From: Polyangiaceae bacterium
Lineage (GTDB): Bacteria; Myxococcota_A; Polyangia; Polyangiales; Polyangiaceae
Assembly: GCA_033763455.1 (NCBI GenBank)
Contig: JANRKO010000060.1
Location: forward strand, 32,001-96,000
Length of the DNA stretch: 64,000 nucleotides
Direction: 5' to 3'
Below, piece by piece: positions 41,018 to 45,867 of this stretch. The notes below the pieces were generated by a model. It saw only the letters and a list, made by a program, of their open reading frames with translations, did no database searches and was not told the origin of the DNA. The position numbers and the translations under genes were made by a program. Position 1 is the stretch's first letter, and each line of letters opens with the position of its first letter.

Positions 41018-41046
41018 TGTGCCAGTTGTGCCATTGACGGTGTGCC
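41018..41046 (+). promoter_or_regulatory. Candidate enhancer (UAS) for a sigma-54 activator: TGTGCC direct repeats
   Basis: TGTGCC at 41018, 41027 and 41041. The first is 81 bp upstream of the -24 box, and the same motif with 9-bp spacing occurs upstream of the paralog. Confidence 0.5.
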
Positions 41047-41098: not shown

Positions 41099-41114
41099 TG
41101 GCACGTGTCTTGCG
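41099..41114 (+). promoter_or_regulatory. Sigma-54 (-24/-12) promoter
   Basis: TGGCACGTGTCTTGCG matches TGGCACG-N4-TTGC; the -12 C (41113) is 13 nt before ATG 41126. Confidence 0.8.
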
Positions 41115-41125
41115 GAGGGGCGTTC

Positions 41126-42814
41126 ATGATTCGAACTCGGCTGGGCTCTTGGCACACTCTCTTCATGGCTGCGTTGGGGACGACCCCATTTGCGTGCGGG
41201 GGCTCTACCTCTACGGTGGAAATGTTCTCGGCTTCGGGCGGAGTTGGCGTGACGGGTGGCTCGGGAGGAGTTGGCGTGACGGGCGGCTCGGGGGGAGTTG
41301 GCGTGACGGGTGGCTCGGGAGGAACCGCTTCGGTGCCGGCGGCGTGGAGCTGTACTCCAGTGCCGTTAACTGGAGTAGACACCGGCTACGTGAGATGCGG
41401 CGAGGGGTATACGCACCGAACCCGCCAAGGTTCTTGCCCTTCGATTTACCCGCGTTCCGGATCGCAGTTGCCGCCTGACGCCACTGGTGGCGCGGGTGCG
41501 GCCGGCGGCGGTGGAGCCATGGGAACCGGTGGGAATGGCGCTGGGGGTTTGGCAACTGGAGGCTCGGGTGGATCTCGGTTTGCATGCTCTGAGGATGCTG
41601 ACTGCACGGCGAGTCCCATTGGGTATTGCCAGTATTCCCCGGCTCGTGAGGATGGCCCACTGGGGGGGGCGCCATCTAGCTCGACGTGTAACTACGGCTG
41701 TGCCACGGATGCTGACTGCGATGTGGGCTCCATTTGCGAGTGTGGCATTGACATGGGGCGCTGTGTTCCGTCCACGTGTCGTACGGACGCCGATTGTGCT
41801 GATGGTAGCTTGTGCGCGGGCGGAATAGAAAACGGGGGAGATCCAACTGGGTGCTCTTTTGAGACTCGGTACCAGCCGTTTTCTTGCCAGCTTCCTGGCG
41901 ACGAATGCTTCACCAACGCGCAGTGTCCTTGGGGTGAATCTTGCATACACGGGGAGGTCAACCGGACGTGTGTCCGCCTCCCGCTTTGCGGGCGCCCGTT
42001 TTGCGTCGACAGCGCGCACCGCCAAGCGAGCCCCACCGAGTCTGCAAGCTGGCTCAGCTCGCCCATATTCGTGAGCTCATTGGATGAATTGGATGCTGGA
42101 ACTCGGCGAGAAATTGCGGCACACTACACGGAAATAGCGCTCATGGAGCACGCATCGGTGGCAGCGTTCGCTCGCTTCTCGTTGCACCTGATGTCGATGG
42201 GAGCGCCCGCGTGGCTTCTCAGCGAAACCCAACGCGCGATGGGTGACGAGATTGAACACGCAAAGGCCTGTTTTGCCCTCGCGAGTAGCTACGCAGAAAG
42301 CAACGTTGGGCCTTCGCGATTGAGGCTTGAGGGTGCTTTTGAAGACGCCGGTGAGTTGGATATCATTGTTACGGCGGTCAAAGAGGCCTGTTTTGGCGAA
42401 ACTGTGGCTGCCATCGAAGCGGCAGAAGCTGCTAGCGTTGCGACTGTGCCGGCCGTACGGGAGCTGCTATCGCGCATCAGCGATGATGAGACTCGGCATG
42501 CAGAGCTTGGGTGGCGTTTTCTGGCGTGGGCCCTGGAGCATGTGGGCGCTTCCAGGCGTGCGGAGCTTACGGCTTCGTTACGGGTACTTTTGCACTCTGA
42601 GGTCGCAGAAGCTAACCAACAAGGGCGAGCCGAGAGTGGTGAGCATGCGCGTACAGCCATTTTGGGCGCGCACGGAATTCTCTCCGCAGCGTCGCGCGGC
42701 GAGCTGCGAAGGGCCGTACTCAAGGACGTTGTTGCGCCCGTCTTGAATTCACTGCTGGAAGCGTCGAGCGGCGCCGAACTAAAGTTGATGACGGAAATGG
42801 CGGCATTGGCGTAG
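41126..42814 (+). CDS. Exported Cys-rich protein fused to a C-terminal ferritin-like diiron domain (paralog 1)
   Basis: Signal ending in PFAC; Gly linkers; more than 20 Cys with repeated CxxDADC; CGRP junction; diiron ligands EHASV..DEIEH..EACFGE..DETRH. Confidence 0.88.
   Translation: MIRTRLGSWHTLFMAALGTTPFACGGSTSTVEMFSASGGVGVTGGSGGVGVTGGSGGVGVTGGSGGTASVPAAWSCTPVPLTGVDTGYVRCGEGYTHRTRQGSCPSIYPRSGSQLPPDATGGAGAAGGGGAMGTGGNGAGGLATGGSGGSRFACSEDADCTASPIGYCQYSPAREDGPLGGAPSSSTCNYGCATDADCDVGSICECGIDMGRCVPSTCRTDADCADGSLCAGGIENGGDPTGCSFETRYQPFSCQLPGDECFTNAQCPWGESCIHGEVNRTCVRLPLCGRPFCVDSAHRQASPTESASWLSSPIFVSSLDELDAGTRREIAAHYTEIALMEHASVAAFARFSLHLMSMGAPAWLLSETQRAMGDEIEHAKACFALASSYAESNVGPSRLRLEGAFEDAGELDIIVTAVKEACFGETVAAIEAAEAASVATVPAVRELLSRISDDETRHAELGWRFLAWALEHVGASRRAELTASLRVLLHSEVAEANQQGRAESGEHARTAILGAHGILSAASRGELRRAVLKDVVAPVLNSLLEASSGAELKLMTEMAALA
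41237..41317 (+). repeat. 27-bp coding tandem repeat x3 (GGVGVTGGS)
   Basis: ggNggagttggcgtgacgggYggctcg at 41237, 41264 and 41291; absent from paralog 2. Confidence 0.9.
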
Positions 42815-42910
42815 GGCGCTCGGGGCGAGGCTAGCGTGGGGTTCGGTGAGTCGGCGCAATTCGTGGTGCGAACGATCGTGCCCCCCAAATGGCCTGGGAC
42901 CGTTGCGAAC

Positions 42911-42992
42911 CCCCACAAGCTCCGCCACAAGGCCCTCCAGCTCCTCGGGCGTGAGCAGAAGTGCGCGCCCTGCCATAGCCGAATTCTTGTCG
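42911..42992 (-). pseudogene. Internally deleted remnant of a second copy of the PH-domain gene
   Basis: Encodes RQEFGYG, then after a deletion/frameshift GRALLLTPEELEGLVAELVG, versus RKEFGYG..ARTLLITPEEPERFVAELLS in 40342..40869. 42918-42967 matches 40385-40434 at 37/50 nt by hand alignment. Confidence 0.8.
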
Positions 42993-43100
42993 GGCTAGCG
43001 CGCCGTGCCGGTGTTGGTAGGCGTGCCCCAAGCTTCGCCCCAAAAAACCCTCATTCAGTGGCTAAAGCTGGGGCGTGGCATTGGGTATTCAGCGCGACAA

Positions 43101-43126
43101 ACGGTGTGCCATATGTGCCATGTGCG
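43101..43126 (+). promoter_or_regulatory. Candidate enhancer (UAS): TGTGCC direct repeats
   Basis: ACGGTGTGCC (43101-43110, identical to 41037-41046), TGTGCC at 43114 and TGTGCG at 43121; about 89 bp upstream of the -24 box. Confidence 0.5.
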
Positions 43127-43193
43127 GAGCACGAGTCAGACCGAGGTAGCGGATGAGCTCCAAAGACTCGGTAATATGCAGCAAGGCTAACGG

Positions 43194-43209
43194 CGGCACG
43201 GTGTTTGCT
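43194..43209 (+). promoter_or_regulatory. Sigma-54 (-24/-12) promoter
   Basis: CGGCACGGTGTTTGCT; the -12 C (43208) is 13 nt before ATG 43221, the same spacing as in paralog 1. Confidence 0.8.
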
Positions 43210-43220
43210 CGGCGGCGGCT

Positions 43221-44876
43221 ATGATTCGGACTCGACTTGGTTCTTGGCACGCACTCTTTCTGGCAGCGCTTGGGACAGCACCGTTCGGCTGCGGGGGCGC
43301 CACATCAGCGACGGACATGTCCTCGGCTTCGGGCGGAGGTGGTGCGTCAGGTGGCTCGGGCGGAAGCGATCCGGGGCGCGCGACGTGGAGCTGCACGAAT
43401 CCTATGCCGTTAACTGGAGTGGACACTGGCTATGTAAGGTGCGCTGAAGGGTACACACACCGAGCCAAGCAAGTGGCTTGCCCGTCGATTTACCCACGTT
43501 CTGGATCGCAACTGCCGGCTGACGCAACTTTTGGAGCGGGCCCGACCGGCGGCGGTGCGCTGGCCACAGGGGGCAACACGTCTGGGAGTTGGGCCGCTGG
43601 CGGTACGGGAGGAGTTCGGTTCGCTTGCGCCGAGGATGCCGATTGTAAGGAGAAGCCCAATGGGTATTGCCAGTACTATCCTGCGGTTCAGGCCCTAGGT
43701 GCCGCAGGATTGTGCGGTCCGCCGTCGTCGCCGTCTCGGACGGTGTGTAGCTACGGCTGTGTTACTGACCAGGACTGTGGATCGGGTACTATCTGCCAGT
43801 GCGGCGAGGGCATCGGAAGCTGCGTTCCGTCCACGTGTCGTACGGACGCCGATTGTGGTGAAGGTAGCTTGTGCGCGGGTGGGGTTTACGGTGAAAGTTC
43901 TATAGGGTTCTATTCCTGCCAGGTACCTGGCGATCAATGCTTTACCAACTCGCAGTGTGAGGGATACCCCTCCCGGGGAGGGTTTTGCGAGTGGATAGGG
44001 GTAAACGTCGATCGCATTCGTACCTGCGTGACGCGCCAAGTGACCCTCTGCGGACGCCCATTTTGCGTCGACAACGTGCACCGCCAGGCGAGCCCAACTG
44101 AGTCAGCGAGCTGGCTCGGATCTCCCATTTTCGTCGCCTCGGCAGACGAATTGGACGCCGTAAGTCGGCATGAGGTCGCCTCGCACTACACCGAAATAGC
44201 GCTCATGGAGCACGCATCGGTGGCGGCGTTTGCTCGCTTCTCGCTGCACTTGATGTCGATGGGAGCGCCTGCGTGGCTTCTCAGCGAAACCCAGCGCGCG
44301 ATGGGGGACGAGATAGAGCATGCAACGGCGTGCTTCGCGCTCGCCAGTAGCTATGCCGGCAGCAGCGTGGGTCCTTCGCAGCTTTGCCTGGAGGGTGCGT
44401 TTGCGGAAGTAAGTATGCTTGAGATCGTTGTTACCGCCGTGAAAGAGGCCTGTTTTGGCGAAACTGTGGCTGCCATTGAAGCGGCAGAAGCTGCCAGCGT
44501 TGCAACTGTGCCGGCTGTACGGGAGCTGTTATCGCGCATCAGCGACGATGAAACGCGGCATGCGGCGCTTGGGTGGCGTTTTCTGGCGTGGGCGTTGGAG
44601 AACGTGGGGGCTTCGACGCGTGCAGCGCTCGAGGCCTCTTTGCGGGAGCTTTTGCACGGTGAGTGTGCGGACGCCGATCGGCAGGCTCTCTCGGACACCG
44701 GCTTCAAGGCTCATGCCGCTGCCCTGAGCGCCCACGGAATTCTCTCCCCAGCGTCGCGGGCCGAGCTTAGAAGCACAGTGCTTCGGGATGTGGTCAGGCC
44801 GGTTCTGAATTCACTGCTTTCGGCAGCGAACAGTTCTGAAACGGCGTTGGTGCCGGAAGTGGCGGCGCTGTCGTAG
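43221..44876 (+). CDS. Exported Cys-rich protein fused to a C-terminal ferritin-like diiron domain (paralog 2)
   Basis: Same architecture as 41126..42814: MIRTRLGSWH signal ending in PFGC, Cys scaffold, CGRPFCVD, EHASV..DEIEH..EACFGE..DETRH. Confidence 0.88.
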   Translation: MIRTRLGSWHALFLAALGTAPFGCGGATSATDMSSASGGGGASGGSGGSDPGRATWSCTNPMPLTGVDTGYVRCAEGYTHRAKQVACPSIYPRSGSQLPADATFGAGPTGGGALATGGNTSGSWAAGGTGGVRFACAEDADCKEKPNGYCQYYPAVQALGAAGLCGPPSSPSRTVCSYGCVTDQDCGSGTICQCGEGIGSCVPSTCRTDADCGEGSLCAGGVYGESSIGFYSCQVPGDQCFTNSQCEGYPSRGGFCEWIGVNVDRIRTCVTRQVTLCGRPFCVDNVHRQASPTESASWLGSPIFVASADELDAVSRHEVASHYTEIALMEHASVAAFARFSLHLMSMGAPAWLLSETQRAMGDEIEHATACFALASSYAGSSVGPSQLCLEGAFAEVSMLEIVVTAVKEACFGETVAAIEAAEAASVATVPAVRELLSRISDDETRHAALGWRFLAWALENVGASTRAALEASLRELLHGECADADRQALSDTGFKAHAAALSAHGILSPASRAELRSTVLRDVVRPVLNSLLSAANSSETALVPEVAALS

Positions 44877-44948: not shown

Positions 44949-45239
44949 ATGAAGCTCTCCCGAGACCTCTCTGATCCGGATGCCCGTCCGTACTTTTTGT
45001 GGAGTGAACCGACCACCGTTGGGGAATTTCGGGACAAGCTAGCTCAAGCCGATGGAGAGGAGTGGGCGAGGTTGGTTGGCACTCTCATGCGCGAGGCGCG
45101 AGATCCAGACGTTTGGAAGTTCGTGACGCCGCAGATGGTGTGGGAGCGTTTTGAGAAGATTGATCGCTACTTGGGTAGGCGCCGTCCCTTTTGGCATTAC
45201 CTGATGAGCGCATGGCACGATGATGGATTCGTTGCCTAG
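44949..45239 (+). CDS. Putative antitoxin of a nucleotidyltransferase TA pair (DUF6922-like)
   Basis: 96-aa ORF RPYFLWSE..WARLVGTLMREARDPDVWKFV..LGRRRPFW whose end overlaps the start of the downstream AbiEii-like gene. Confidence 0.65.
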   Translation: MKLSRDLSDPDARPYFLWSEPTTVGEFRDKLAQADGEEWARLVGTLMREARDPDVWKFVTPQMVWERFEKIDRYLGRRRPFWHYLMSAWHDDGFVA

Positions 45240-45867
45240 CGGGCTCAGTCCGCTGCAGATGTTGGTCATCGCCCAGTTGCAGGCGAGAGCGACCAATTTC
45301 TTCCTTACCGGCGGTGGAGTCCTCGTGGGCTGGGTGCTACACCATCGAGAAACTGAAGATTTGGATCTCTTCACGGATAGCGACGAAACAATGGCTGAGG
45401 CGGACCGGCTCGCTCGGGGTGTTTCGGCCGCTATTGGTGCCGACATTGAAAGTCTTGTCGCCGCACCAGACTTCAAACGCTTCCTCCTCACTCGGGGCAA
45501 CGAAGCCGTTAAGCTGGATTTTGTGCGCGATCGAGCTCCGCAGCTGCGCGCGAAGGTTGCCGTCAGCGGGCTACTCATGGATCCTGTGGAAGAGATCCTC
45601 ATCAACAAGTTGTGTGCATTGGCGGGCCGAGCGGAAGTTCGTGACCTGGTCGATTTGCAATGTCTGGCGGATGCCGGTTACGATATTCTCAAGTTTCTTC
45701 CCGAGGCCGAATTGAAGGATGCTGGTGCAACGCCGGCGACTCTCGCCTGGTTGCTCTCGACGCTCAGGATCCCGGACGAAGTTCCCGGTCCACATTCGAG
45801 TGATGAATTGCGGAGGTTTGCCAAAGGCCTAGAAGCCAAGCTGAGGGCCCTCGCCGCACCTCGTTGA
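45223..45867 (+). CDS. AbiEii/MenT-family nucleotidyltransferase toxin
   Basis: FFLTGGGVL..HHRETEDLDLF, VKLDFV, NKLCALAGRAEVRDLVDL; start at ATG 45220 or 45223. Confidence 0.85.
   Translation: MDSLPSGLSPLQMLVIAQLQARATNFFLTGGGVLVGWVLHHRETEDLDLFTDSDETMAEADRLARGVSAAIGADIESLVAAPDFKRFLLTRGNEAVKLDFVRDRAPQLRAKVAVSGLLMDPVEEILINKLCALAGRAEVRDLVDLQCLADAGYDILKFLPEAELKDAGATPATLAWLLSTLRIPDEVPGPHSSDELRRFAKGLEAKLRALAAPR

What the first reader, a model, noticed from the sequence alone, without database searches (positions are those of the whole stretch)
41126..44876. Best candidate for a new system: exported variable-loop Cys scaffold fused through CGRP to a conserved diiron ferritin-like domain
Seen in sequence: both paralogs have a signal ending in Cys (atypical lipobox PFAC/PFGC) and more than 20 Cys in CxxDADC-type modules. 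The Cys framework is largely conserved while the loops differ in length and sequence (SPAREDGPLGGAPSSST vs YPAVQALGAAGLCGPPSSPSRTV; IENGGDPTGCSFETRYQPF vs VYGESSIGFY; PWGESCIHGEVNRT vs EGYPSRGGFCEWIGVNVDRIRT). An invariant LCGRPFCVD junction leads into a highly similar four-helix domain with E / ExxH / E / ExxH ligands. Established: that ligand pattern defines ferritin-like diiron carboxylate proteins, many of which are O2-activating enzymes. Inference: (a) a cis-acting maturase that modifies or releases the Cys-rich part at Gly-Arg-Pro, like a fused RiPP precursor (Gly followed by a basic residue recalls amidation signals); or (b) a diversified targeting domain delivering an oxidative enzyme to prey or surfaces. 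I know of no functional study of this architecture.
Basis: partly seen in the sequence, partly recalled or inferred. Interest (0 to 1): 0.78.

Follow-up and report, generated by a model that had tools for sequence, protein, structure and literature searches.

The report
Anchored Cys-rich stalk plus diiron enzyme
Two neighbouring genes encode membrane-tethered exported proteins that join a disulfide-rich stalk to a two-metal, ferritin-like enzyme domain; the family is common in one group of soil myxobacteria but has never been studied, and the idea that it processes its own Cys-rich part finds no support.

Summary
Window 41126-42814 (562 aa) and 43221-44876 (551 aa) are tandem paralogs, 66% identical. 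Each has a lipoprotein-type signal, Gly-rich tethers, a ~140-aa domain with a fixed frame of about 20 Cys and loops of variable length, the motif GRPF, and a C-terminal helical domain with E/ExxH/E/ExxH.

It is not a one-off. The same architecture recurs in Polyangiaceae and Sorangium: 259 full-length relatives and at least 581 genomic stretches, often several per genome. Sources call them only "ferritin-like domain-containing protein". No Pfam or NCBIfam model reaches its cutoff.

The predicted fold is nearest to enzyme-type diiron proteins (R2lox, aldehyde-deformylating oxygenase, AurF, PaaA), not to storage ferritins, but no match is significant.

GRP is present in 223 of 225 relatives. It persists where the Cys scaffold is absent or replaced by DUF3500, so it belongs to the enzyme domain and is not a scaffold/enzyme cleavage junction. 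No neighbour gene is conserved, and loop dN/dS is 0.26-0.5.

Best reading: an envelope-anchored dimetal oxidase on a disulfide-stapled stalk, substrate unknown. The RiPP-like idea is not supported and the targeting idea stays open. Both genes carry a sigma-54-type promoter motif.

New variant of a known kind; interest moderate.

The parts
41018..41034 (+). Direct repeat TGTGCCA-N2-TGTGCCAT upstream of gene A; candidate activator (enhancer-binding protein) site
   Evidence: the only two 0-mismatch sites in 64 kb are this one and 43105-43121. It lies 82 nt upstream of the sigma-54-type motif. Function is inferred.
41100..41113 (+). Sigma-54-type -24/-12 promoter motif GGCACG-N4-TTGC of gene A
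   Evidence: 2 matches in the window against 0.37 expected, both 12 nt before a paralog's ATG. The consensus yTGGCACGrnnnTTGCw is quoted from PMC12754779 (passages read). Not shown to be used.
41126..42814 (+). Gene A, 562 aa: lipoprotein-type signal, tethers, Cys-rich stalk, ferritin-like dimetal domain
41126..41197 (+). Signal peptide with lipobox-like PFAC; Cys24 is the predicted lipidated residue
   Evidence: Cys present in this column in 108 of 120 family rows, at median position 26, followed by GG in 65 of 108. AF2 predicts a helix at residues 6-16. No dedicated signal-peptide predictor was available.
41198..41335 (+). Gly/Ser-rich flexible tether 1, containing a 27-nt tandem repeat x3.3 (41234-41323) that B lacks
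   Evidence: pLDDT <50 for residues 26-70; TRF result; alignment gap in B
41336..41488 (+). Small conserved 3-Cys module (C76, C91, C104; R98, P109, R110)
   Evidence: nearly invariant columns; pLDDT 79-96; 82% identical in B. Role unknown.
41489..41575 (+). Gly-rich flexible tether 2
   Evidence: pLDDT <50 for residues 122-147
41576..41989 (+). Cys-rich domain: four CxxDxDC-type beta-hairpin repeats, about 20 Cys, variable loops
   Evidence: A4: 18 invariant and 2 near-invariant Cys in 66 sequences. Spacing statistics. AF2 pLDDT 85.7. No significant PDB fold match, 0 of 121 at E<=1e-3. TIGR04201 scores 16.8 bits against a cutoff of 25.
41990..42094 (+). GRPF motif (41990-42001) and the conserved N-terminal cap of the helical domain (R299, A301, W309)
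   Evidence: G289, R290 and P291 invariant in 120 of 120. GRP in 223 of 225 and kept without the Cys scaffold. Two short strands at 292-294 and 297-299. pLDDT is 64-75 at the motif and >90 from residue 301.
42095..42811 (+). Ferritin-like dimetal-carboxylate domain, seven helices; putative ligands E341, E375, H378, E425, E455, H458
   Evidence: invariant residues; AF2 helices with pLDDT mostly >90; Foldseek neighbours R2lox, ADO, AurF, PaaA; Atlas structural neighbours AurF-like and ADO; sub-threshold Pfam matches
43105..43121 (+). Second copy of the TGTGCCA-N2-TGTGCCAT repeat, upstream of gene B
43195..43208 (+). Sigma-54-type promoter motif of gene B
43221..44876 (+). Gene B, 551 aa, paralog of A with the same architecture (Cys-rich domain about 43617-44051; GRPF 44052-44063; helical domain about 44157-44873)
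   Evidence: Its closest relative P0003 is 71% identical overall: 89% in the helical part and 62% in the Cys-rich part.

Best explanation
A and B are tandem paralogs of a protein family largely confined to Polyangiaceae.

Inferred path of the protein: it is exported by a lipoprotein-type signal, lipidated at Cys24, and hangs from the membrane on Gly/Ser-rich flexible tethers.

A ~140-residue domain of four CxxDxDC beta-hairpin repeats follows. Its roughly 20 Cys most likely form about 10 disulfides. It acts as a rigid stalk or spacer whose hairpin-tip loops tolerate change, much as proposed for the Cys-rich repeats of the myxobacterial surface receptor TraA.

The working part is the C-terminal ~270 residues. 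This is an enzyme-type ferritin-like helical bundle with a canonical six-ligand dimetal site (E341, E375xxH378, E425, E455xxH458). I infer that it binds Fe/Fe or Mn/Fe and uses O2 or H2O2 to oxidise a still unknown substrate in the periplasm or at the cell surface.

The invariant GRPF is the start of this domain's own N-terminal cap. It is not a processing site between two parts.

Both genes appear to be driven by sigma-54-type promoters with a shared upstream repeat.

Shown here: the architecture, the conservation, the family distribution, the predicted folds and the absence of conserved partner genes. Inferred: export and lipidation, disulfides, metal binding, catalysis, and the promoter.
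For: Architecture and conservation:
- 120 of 120 aligned relatives keep G289-R290-P291 and E341, H342, D374, E375, H378, E420, E425, E431, E455 and H458.
- The two halves of the bundle repeat the same pattern, EHASVAAF...DExxH and GETVAAIE...DETRH, as read.

Fold:
- The full-length AF2 model has pLDDT 82.4, with seven long helices at mostly >90.
- All listed Foldseek PDB neighbours with probability above 0.8 are ferritin-like dimetal enzymes or ferritin-fold proteins of unknown function. Examples are ADO 5ux2 (prob 1.00, TMt 0.60), PaaA 4iit (0.99), 3ez0 (0.98), R2lox 3ee4 (0.97), AurF 3chi and ToMOH 3n1z.
- No ferritin, bacterioferritin, Dps or rubrerythrin appears among the 44 rows listed.
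- The Atlas structure search gives AurF-like and ADO clusters at TM 0.56-0.65.
- Single-member Pfam scans of 29 domain sequences hit Rubrerythrin (18), DUF455 (14), Phenol_Hydrox (13), FA_desaturase_2 (13) and AurF (5) at E<=1.

Export:
- The Cys column is filled in 108 of 120 rows, with A, G or S at -1 in 96 of 108 and a G/S/A/T-rich tail after it.
- The Cys-domain sequences have 19 or 20 Cys in 65 of 66 cases.

Stalk:
- The Cys-domain model has pLDDT 85.7 and is made of beta-hairpins.
- TIGR04201 scores weakly, 16.8 and 18.5 bits.
- The TraA paper proposes its Cys repeats as a rigid stalk (PMC3325183, passages read).

GRPF belongs to the enzyme domain:
- It is present in 223 of 225 relatives.
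- It is kept in P0214, P0249 and P0219, which lack the scaffold, and in P0167, which has DUF3500 instead.

Selection and context:
- Selection is purifying. dN/dS is 0.11 in the ferritin core, where dS of 0.67 rules out recent gene conversion, and 0.26 in the Cys domain.
- It is a single-gene unit. The family ORF is in 78 of 78 loci, and the best real neighbour family is in 12 of 78.
- The window neighbours are housekeeping genes.
Against: - No Pfam or NCBIfam model reaches its curated cutoff.
- The profile search of PDB sequences gives only weak hits. The best natural protein is DesA2 at E=0.026, and the top hit is a de novo designed helix bundle matched on the DExRH helix alone.
- No Foldseek match has E<=1e-3, so the enzyme-type assignment rests on ranking and not on significance.
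- The E/ExxH/E/ExxH pattern is also that of bacterioferritin, so it cannot separate an oxygenase from a ferroxidase.
- An exported dimetal oxygenase has no obvious electron donor, and none is encoded nearby.
- The window proteins' lipobox is atypical, and only 29 of 108 family rows meet the strict lipobox. No signal-peptide predictor was run.
- The position of GRPF relative to the metal site could not be examined, because the structure tool returns no coordinates.
- Metal content, disulfides and activity are all untested.
Confidence: 0.55

Rival explanations
1. Envelope iron or peroxide handling rather than substrate oxidation. The dimetal site acts as a ferroxidase (Fe2+ to Fe3+, as in bacterioferritin) or as a rubrerythrin- or Mn-catalase-like H2O2 scavenger outside the cytoplasm. 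Neither activity needs a dedicated reductase partner.
For: The ligand pattern equals that of bacterioferritin (established knowledge). Rubrerythrin is the Pfam family hit by most members, 18 of 29 at sub-threshold level. No reductase or electron-transfer gene is conserved nearby, which suits a self-sufficient reaction. In M. xanthus, sigma-54 promoters drive the peroxide-stress genes ahpC and katB (PMC12754779, passages read).
Against: No ferritin, bacterioferritin, Dps or rubrerythrin structure is among the 44 listed Foldseek rows. The domain is ~270 residues with seven helices, like R2lox, ADO and AurF. The upstream repeat TGTGCCA-N2-TGTGCCAT differs from the PexR site CACCG-n6-CGGTG. No expression data exist.
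Confidence: 0.2
2. The Cys-rich domain is a diversified binding module whose loops aim a surface-tethered oxidative enzyme at different extracellular targets (prey, polymers, surfaces). Paralog expansion would provide different specificities.
For: Six inter-Cys loops take 8-13 different lengths among 66 sequences while the frame is fixed. Even B and its nearest relative P0003 are 89% identical in the helical part but only 55% at non-Cys positions of the Cys domain, with 23 gap columns. Several genomes carry three or more copies among the best 80 stretches, and tandem pairs recur in the window, L004 and L051.
Against: Pairwise dN/dS gives no sign of positive selection. It is 0.26 for the Cys domain between A and B. 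In 10 Sorangium orthologs it is 0.51 for the loops and 0.46 for the frame, with 3 of 43 pairs above 1. Some members lack the domain altogether. Sorangium, where the family is conserved, is known as a cellulose degrader rather than a specialised predator (my knowledge). Indel-rich loops could not be scored.
Confidence: 0.15
3. The diiron domain acts in cis on the Cys-rich part and modifies or releases it at Gly-Arg-Pro, like a precursor peptide fused to its maturase.
For: GRP is invariant and sits at the boundary between the two parts. pLDDT is lowest there, 64-75, so the segment may be flexible.
Against: GRP[FLY] is kept where there is no Cys scaffold to release (P0214, P0249, P0219) and where DUF3500 replaces it (P0167). 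The Cys part is a folded domain of ~140 residues with 18 invariant Cys. No protease, transporter or immunity gene is conserved. The whole protein carries an export signal, whereas known RiPP maturation takes place in the cytoplasm (my knowledge).
Confidence: 0.05
4. A non-catalytic envelope protein. The helical bundle binds a ligand or metal as a sensor or structural element.
For: R2lox-type proteins are ligand binders of unknown activity (description). No partner genes are conserved.
Against: All six canonical metal ligands, plus D374, E420 and E431, are invariant in 120 of 120 rows, with dN/dS of 0.11. That is typical of a working metal site.
Confidence: 0.05

Closest known systems
Enzyme-type ferritin-like dimetal-carboxylate proteins: R2-like ligand-binding oxidase (4ac8, 3ee4), cyanobacterial aldehyde-deformylating oxygenase (5ux2, 4rc7), AurF (3chi), PaaA (4iit)
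   Same: Helical bundle with E/ExxH/E/ExxH, a domain of about 220-300 residues with extra helices, and the best structural neighbours.
   Different: These proteins are cytoplasmic and soluble, with no signal peptide, lipid anchor or Cys-rich domain. Sequence identity in the structural alignments is 12-19%, no match has E<=1e-3, and TM by target is at most 0.61. The GRPF cap and the EHASxAAFARF helix are specific to this family.
Cys-rich tandem repeats of myxobacterial TraA (TIGR04201, Myxo_Cys_RPT)
   Same: A repeat specific to Myxococcales in exported surface proteins, with a few invariant Cys per repeat. It is proposed to be disulfide-bonded and to act as a rigid stalk (PMC3325183, passages). 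TIGR04201 is the only NCBIfam model that touches the window's Cys region.
   Different: Scores of 16.8 and 18.5 bits are below the cutoff of 25. Here there are four repeats in a fixed 20-Cys frame. The anchor is an N-terminal lipobox, not a C-terminal MYXO-CTERM. The displayed domain is a metalloenzyme fold, not a PA14 lectin.
Bacterioferritin and rubrerythrin (ferroxidase and peroxidase members of the same superfamily)
   Same: The same six-ligand pattern, and Rubrerythrin is the commonest weak Pfam hit.
   Different: No such structure appears among the listed fold neighbours. The domain is much longer. There is no heme-binding Met or rubredoxin domain (read from the sequence).
DUF455 (PF04305), an uncharacterised ferritin-like family
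   Same: Shares the DExxHxxxGxxW-like fourth helix. 14 of 29 members hit it, best E=2.1e-7.
   Different: The window proteins score 13.7 and 15.4 bits against a cutoff of 34.3, and only ~60 of 247 profile positions align. The function of DUF455 is itself unknown.

Membership tests
Ferritin-like dimetal-carboxylate superfamily | Two E...ExxH pairs on four helices with about 30-residue spacing | tested here: met
   E341, then E375xxH378 34 residues on; E425, then E455xxH458 30 residues on. All invariant in 120 of 120. They lie on predicted helices 324-357, 362-390, 410-438 and 442-472.
Ferritin-like dimetal-carboxylate superfamily | Four-helix-bundle core fold similar to solved members | tested here: inconclusive
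   The top Foldseek rows are ferritin-like proteins with probability up to 1.00 and TMt up to 0.61, but 0 matches have E<=1e-3.
Ferritin-like dimetal-carboxylate superfamily | Significant sequence match to a curated family of the clan | tested here: not met
   Best scores are Rubrerythrin 13.8 bits (cutoff 22.8), DUF455 15.4 (34.3) and Phenol_Hydrox 11.4 (24.4). The PDB profile search gives DesA2 at E=0.026.
Ferritin-like dimetal-carboxylate superfamily | Binds two Fe or Mn ions | not testable with these tools
   Needs metal analysis of the purified protein.
Storage ferritin, bacterioferritin, Dps | Compact ~160-residue subunit that forms a 12- or 24-mer cage | tested here: not met
   The domain has ~270 residues and seven helices. 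No ferritin, Bfr or Dps is among the 44 listed fold neighbours. Oligomeric state was not tested.
Bacterial lipoprotein | Signal peptide ending in a lipobox [LVI][ASTVI][GAS]C | tested here: inconclusive
   The window has PFAC and PFGC. In the family, Cys is in the column in 108 of 120 rows, the -1 residue is A, G or S in 96 of 108, and the strict lipobox is met in 29 of 108. No LipoP or SignalP was available.
TIGR04201 Myxo_Cys_RPT | Score at or above the curated cutoff of 25 bits | tested here: not met
   16.8 bits for A and 18.5 bits for B.
RiPP precursor fused to its maturase | A short core peptide released at a conserved site, with protease, transporter or immunity genes nearby | tested here: not met
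   The Cys part is a folded ~140-residue domain. GRP persists without it. No neighbour family is conserved beyond 12 of 78 loci.
RiPP precursor fused to its maturase | Ligand-dependent cleavage or mass shift | not testable with these tools
   Needs mass spectrometry.
Sigma-54-dependent gene | -24 GG and -12 GC elements matching TGGCACG-N4-TTGC | tested here: met
   Two matches in 64 kb, both 12 nt before a paralog's ATG, against 0.37 expected. A relaxed motif lies upstream of 11 of 47 assessable relatives against about 0.6 expected. Use of the promoter was not tested.

The most novel reading that the evidence does not exclude
The family is a new class of cell-surface oxidative enzymes. An O2-activating dimetal domain is displayed on a disulfide-knotted scaffold whose fast-changing hairpin loops act as a natural binder library. 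Each paralog would aim oxidative chemistry at a different extracellular target, such as an insoluble polymer, a lipid, or another cell. The invariant GRPF arginine would gate access to the metal site.
Probability: 0.12. Interest if true: 0.8.

Novelty: new variant of a known kind. Interest (0 to 1): 0.45.

Why it matters
All well-studied enzyme-type diiron-carboxylate proteins, such as R2, ADO, AurF and the soluble monooxygenases, work in the cytoplasm with dedicated reductants.

A family of at least several hundred exported, anchored versions, conserved in Sorangium and uncultured Polyangiaceae and often present in several copies per genome, raises two questions. How is such a site loaded with metal and re-reduced outside the cell? 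What does it oxidise there?

The family has no Pfam or NCBIfam model and no studied member in the literature I could search. It is therefore a clear, cheap target: one gene, cultivable hosts in Sorangium, and obvious ligand mutants.

The work also removes a tempting but unsupported RiPP-like reading.

Tried and rejected
- Complex prediction, the 3-Cys module (residues 71-121) against residues 285-562: no verdict, score 0.01 against a mark of 0.32, controls not run. It says nothing either way.
- Conserved gene neighbours: all-against-all clustering of 3073 ORFs from 78 loci found none. The clusters seen in 52 and 33 loci are antisense ORFs that overlap the gene itself, judged from their coordinates.
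- Stand-alone short forms: 203 shorter proteins matched. All 15 I inspected begin at or just before MEHAS, or sit inside the Cys domain, so they look like cut contigs or mis-called starts and not true short forms. The other 188 were not inspected.
- Recent gene conversion as the cause of the near-identical helical core: rejected, because dS is 0.24-0.99 where dN is about 0.
- Fold of the Cys domain: only insignificant likeness to Dkk, R-spondin, WAP and TNFR modules. The best is E=0.47, and Atlas TM is below 0.5 outside the family's own cluster.
- Rfam: 0 matches in the window.
- Sigma-70 promoter and terminator scans: at chance level.
- PexR as the activator: its published site differs.
- Whether GRP enters the metal site: not answerable, because no model coordinates are returned.

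Full report
WHAT IS THERE

The ORF listing and translation confirm two + strand genes. A is 41126-42814 (562 aa) and B is 43221-44876 (551 aa). They are 382/581 identical (66%), with 49 gap positions that fall almost entirely in Gly-rich linkers and Cys-domain loops. A local tblastn finds no third copy in the window.

The neighbours are ordinary genes. Upstream lie succinylarginine dihydrolase, DUF3025, SHMT, a Ser/Thr kinase, an Aminotran_3 aminotransferase (hemL-like by my reading), Hsp33 and a bPH_5 protein. Downstream lie an AbiEii toxin with a small upstream ORF, TypA/BipA, a D12-class adenine methyltransferase and CDP-diglyceride synthase.

TypA's named relatives at 73-77% identity are all called Polyangiaceae or Sorangiineae bacteria. 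The window therefore comes from an uncultured relative of that group. Its G+C of about 59% is, from my own knowledge, low for the group.

ANATOMY OF THE PROTEIN (residues of A)

- Residues 1-24: a basic n-region, a short hydrophobic stretch and PFAC. In the 120-row family alignment the Cys column is filled in 108 rows, at median position 26. The -1 residue is A, G or S in 96 of those 108 and the next two residues are GG in 65. The strict lipobox is met in only 29 of 108.
- Residues 25-70 and 122-150: Gly/Ser-rich, with pLDDT below 50. The first holds a 27-nt repeat x3.3 at 41234-41323 that B lacks.
- Residues 71-121: a small conserved module with three Cys.
- Residues 151-288: the Cys-rich domain.
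- Residues 289-292: GRPF.
- Residues 293-323: a conserved coil and hairpin (R299, A301, W309).
- Residues 324-562: seven long helices.

THE CYS-RICH DOMAIN

I cut this region out of 64 genomic relatives plus A and B. Eighteen Cys are invariant and two more are present in at least 90% of rows. Sixty-five of 66 sequences have 19 or 20 Cys.

The domain reads as four repeats of the type C-x2-D-x-D-C-x3-5-G-x2-C...C. Seven inter-Cys spacings have at most two lengths, for example five residues in each CxxDxDC. Six loops take 8-13 different lengths.

AlphaFold with this alignment gives pLDDT 85.7 and a chain of beta-hairpins. Foldseek against the PDB finds nothing significant, 0 of 121 matches at E<=1e-3. 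The top rows are Dkk4 and Dkk1 N-terminal regions, R-spondin furin repeats, WAP and TNFR modules. The Atlas structure search points, below TM 0.5, to other Myxococcota proteins that carry Dickkopf_N-like or DUF7107 modules next to OmpA or a metalloprotease.

The only curated model that touches the region is TIGR04201, at 16.8 and 18.5 bits against a cutoff of 25. This is the repeat defined on the surface receptor TraA. Its authors expect disulfides there and propose a rigid stalk (PMC3325183, passages read).

I therefore read the domain as a disulfide-stapled stalk or spacer built from a repeat type common in myxobacterial exported proteins. That reading is a resemblance, not a membership.

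THE HELICAL DOMAIN

The following residues are invariant in 120 of 120 aligned relatives: E341, H342, D374, E375, H378, E420, G424, E425, T426, E431, E455 and H458. The two halves echo each other, with EHASVAAF...DEIEH against GETVAAIE...DETRH. That fixes the six canonical ligands.

No Pfam or NCBIfam model passes its cutoff. Scanned one by one, 29 domain sequences hit Rubrerythrin (18), DUF455 (14), Phenol_Hydrox (13), FA_desaturase_2 (13) and AurF (5) at E<=1. A profile search of PDB sequences gives only a designed helix bundle and DesA2 at E=0.026.

The full-length AlphaFold model has pLDDT 82.4 and pTM 0.66. Its nearest solved structures are R2lox, an Arthrobacter ferritin-fold protein of unknown function, aldehyde-deformylating oxygenases, AurF, ToMOH, VlmB, PaaA, class Ie R2 and acyl-ACP desaturases. 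Probabilities reach 1.00 and TM by target reaches 0.61. E-values are all above 0.01, and no storage ferritin, bacterioferritin, Dps or rubrerythrin is listed. The Atlas agrees, giving AurF-like and ADO clusters at TM 0.56-0.65.

So the superfamily assignment is sound on ligands and fold. The enzyme-type sub-assignment is a ranking, not a significant match.

HOW WIDE THE FAMILY IS

- A word-indexed search found 259 proteins at E<=1e-3 among 8000 scored candidates. The best 120 cover 64-100% of the query. Where named, they are 'ferritin-like domain-containing protein' of Sorangium or Polyangiaceae.
- An exhaustive HMMER scan with the last 267 residues found 8638 cluster representatives at E<=1e-3, 4499 at 1e-10 and 1139 at 1e-30.
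The best 80, giving 78 loci, are all Sorangium, Polyangiaceae, Polyangiales or unclassified Myxococcota or 'Deltaproteobacteria' MAGs. Several assemblies appear three times.
- Tandem pairs recur in L004 and L051, as in the window.

THE GRP QUESTION

GRP is invariant in 120 of 120 rows. It is found 35-90 residues before the EHAS helix in 223 of 225 relatives that have enough upstream sequence: GRPF 214, GRPY 4, GRPL 3, others 2.

The motif stays when the Cys scaffold is gone:
- P0214 goes from a lipobox and a Gly-rich linker straight into GRPLLIDG.
- P0249 and P0219 are similar.
- P0215 keeps only one Cys repeat.
- P0167 has a DUF3500 domain (E=8e-33, above cutoff) in place of the scaffold, followed by CGRPFLVEG.

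The motif therefore travels with the helical domain. The model places two short strands right after it and a well-defined segment (pLDDT above 90) from residue 301. I read it as the N-terminal cap of the enzyme domain. Whether R290 reaches the metal site cannot be said, because the tool returns no coordinates.

SELECTION

Between A and B (Nei-Gojobori), dN/dS is:
- 0.07 for the signal;
- 0.14 for the 3-Cys module;
- 0.26 for the Cys-rich domain (dS 1.2);
- 0.09 for the junction;
- 0.11 for the ferritin core (dS 0.67);
- 0.23 for the C-terminal third.

dS stays at 0.24-0.99 where dN is about 0, so the near-identical core reflects constraint and not recent gene conversion.

P0003 is closer to B (71% identity) than B is to A (66%). 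Its helical part (89% to B) is likewise closer than A's is to B (77%). P0121, a 252-aa partial protein, is 90% identical to A's helical part. This suggests that the duplication predates these lineages, but no tree was built. Even between B and P0003 the Cys domain is only 62% identical, or 55% at non-Cys positions, with 23 gap columns.

In 10 Sorangium orthologs, whose Cys domain has a constant length, the ratio of mean dN to mean dS is:
- 0.51 for the family-variable loops (3 of 43 usable pairs above 1);
- 0.46 for the frame;
- 0.41 for the junction;
- 0.23 for the core;
- 1.02 for the low-complexity C-terminal tail.

The loops are relaxed but show no signal of being driven. The method is crude: it is pairwise, G+C is high, and indels are ignored.

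CONTEXT

Clustering 3073 ORFs from the 78 loci shows the family in 78 of 78 loci (84 ORFs). Two clusters are antisense shadow ORFs. The most widespread genuine neighbour is in 12 of 78 loci, within the Sorangium synteny block. The gene works alone.

REGULATION (NEW)

The upstream regions of A and B are otherwise diverged but share two elements.
- GGCACG-N4-TTGC occurs exactly twice in 64 kb, at 41100-41113 and 43195-43208. Each copy ends 12 nt before the ATG. The expected count is 0.37, and 3 of 100 shuffles reached 2. It fits the sigma-54 consensus yTGGCACGrnnnTTGCw quoted in PMC12754779.
- The direct repeat TGTGCCA-N2-TGTGCCAT lies 82-90 nt further upstream. These are the only two perfect sites in the window.

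A relaxed form of the promoter motif lies within 400 nt upstream of the lipobox Cys codon in 11 of the 47 family genes for which my crude rule found a lipobox. About 0.6 would be expected from the loci's own background. None of the Sorangium genes has it, and 36 genes were not assessable. If the promoter is used, the spacing implies a leaderless or nearly leaderless mRNA.

VERDICT

The most likely object is an envelope-anchored dimetal oxidase on a disulfide-rich stalk, a large and unstudied Polyangiaceae family. The fused-RiPP reading is not supported and the targeting reading remains possible but unproven.

Six literature searches (listings and abstract starts only) showed no study of this architecture. 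Subscription journals and closed supplements were not searched.

Noticed in passing
window 41100-41113 and 43195-43208; 41018-41034 and 43105-43121: Both paralogs carry a sigma-54-type GGCACG-N4-TTGC motif that ends 12 nt before the ATG, so any mRNA would be leaderless. Both also carry a shared TGTGCCA-N2-TGTGCCAT direct repeat 82-90 nt further upstream, a candidate activator site. A relaxed form of the motif is enriched upstream of relatives (11 of 47 assessable, about 0.6 expected) but is absent from the Sorangium orthologs.
   Followed up: partly
window 41234-41323: A 27-nt tandem repeat x3.3 encodes GGVGVTGGS units in the first tether of A and is absent from B. The Sorangium ortholog in L014 has a different repeated tether, the STGEGTSS-type unit repeated about five times (printed). 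Tether length seems to vary by repeat expansion.
   Followed up: partly
protein P0167 (one search hit): One relative has a DUF3500 domain (E=8e-33) in place of the Cys-rich scaffold, joined to the same GRPF-led ferritin-like domain. The enzyme module can therefore be recombined with other exported domains.
   Followed up: partly
L068:1910-4436 and L070:5554-8080: Two loci match the query over about 2050 nt and hold two successive Cys-rich domains, spread over two overlapping ORFs in different frames. This is either a duplicated stalk with a frameshift or an assembly error.
   Followed up: no
window 44949-45867: A small ORF of 96 aa with no Pfam match overlaps the start of an AbiEii nucleotidyltransferase toxin gene (E=1.7e-16). 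This is the layout of a type IV toxin-antitoxin pair, and it sits directly downstream of gene B.
   Followed up: no
window 41336-41488 (A residues 71-121) and 43380-43529: A small module with three conserved Cys (an odd number), flanked by disordered linkers on both sides, is predicted with pLDDT 79-96 in the full-length model. What it packs against, and which Cys is unpaired, is unknown.
   Followed up: partly
A C243 versus B C165 (window about 41852 and 43713): B lacks the near-invariant Cys that corresponds to A's C243 and has an extra Cys inside its long first loop (one search lists, alignment). This hints at a rewired disulfide between the paralogs.
   Followed up: no
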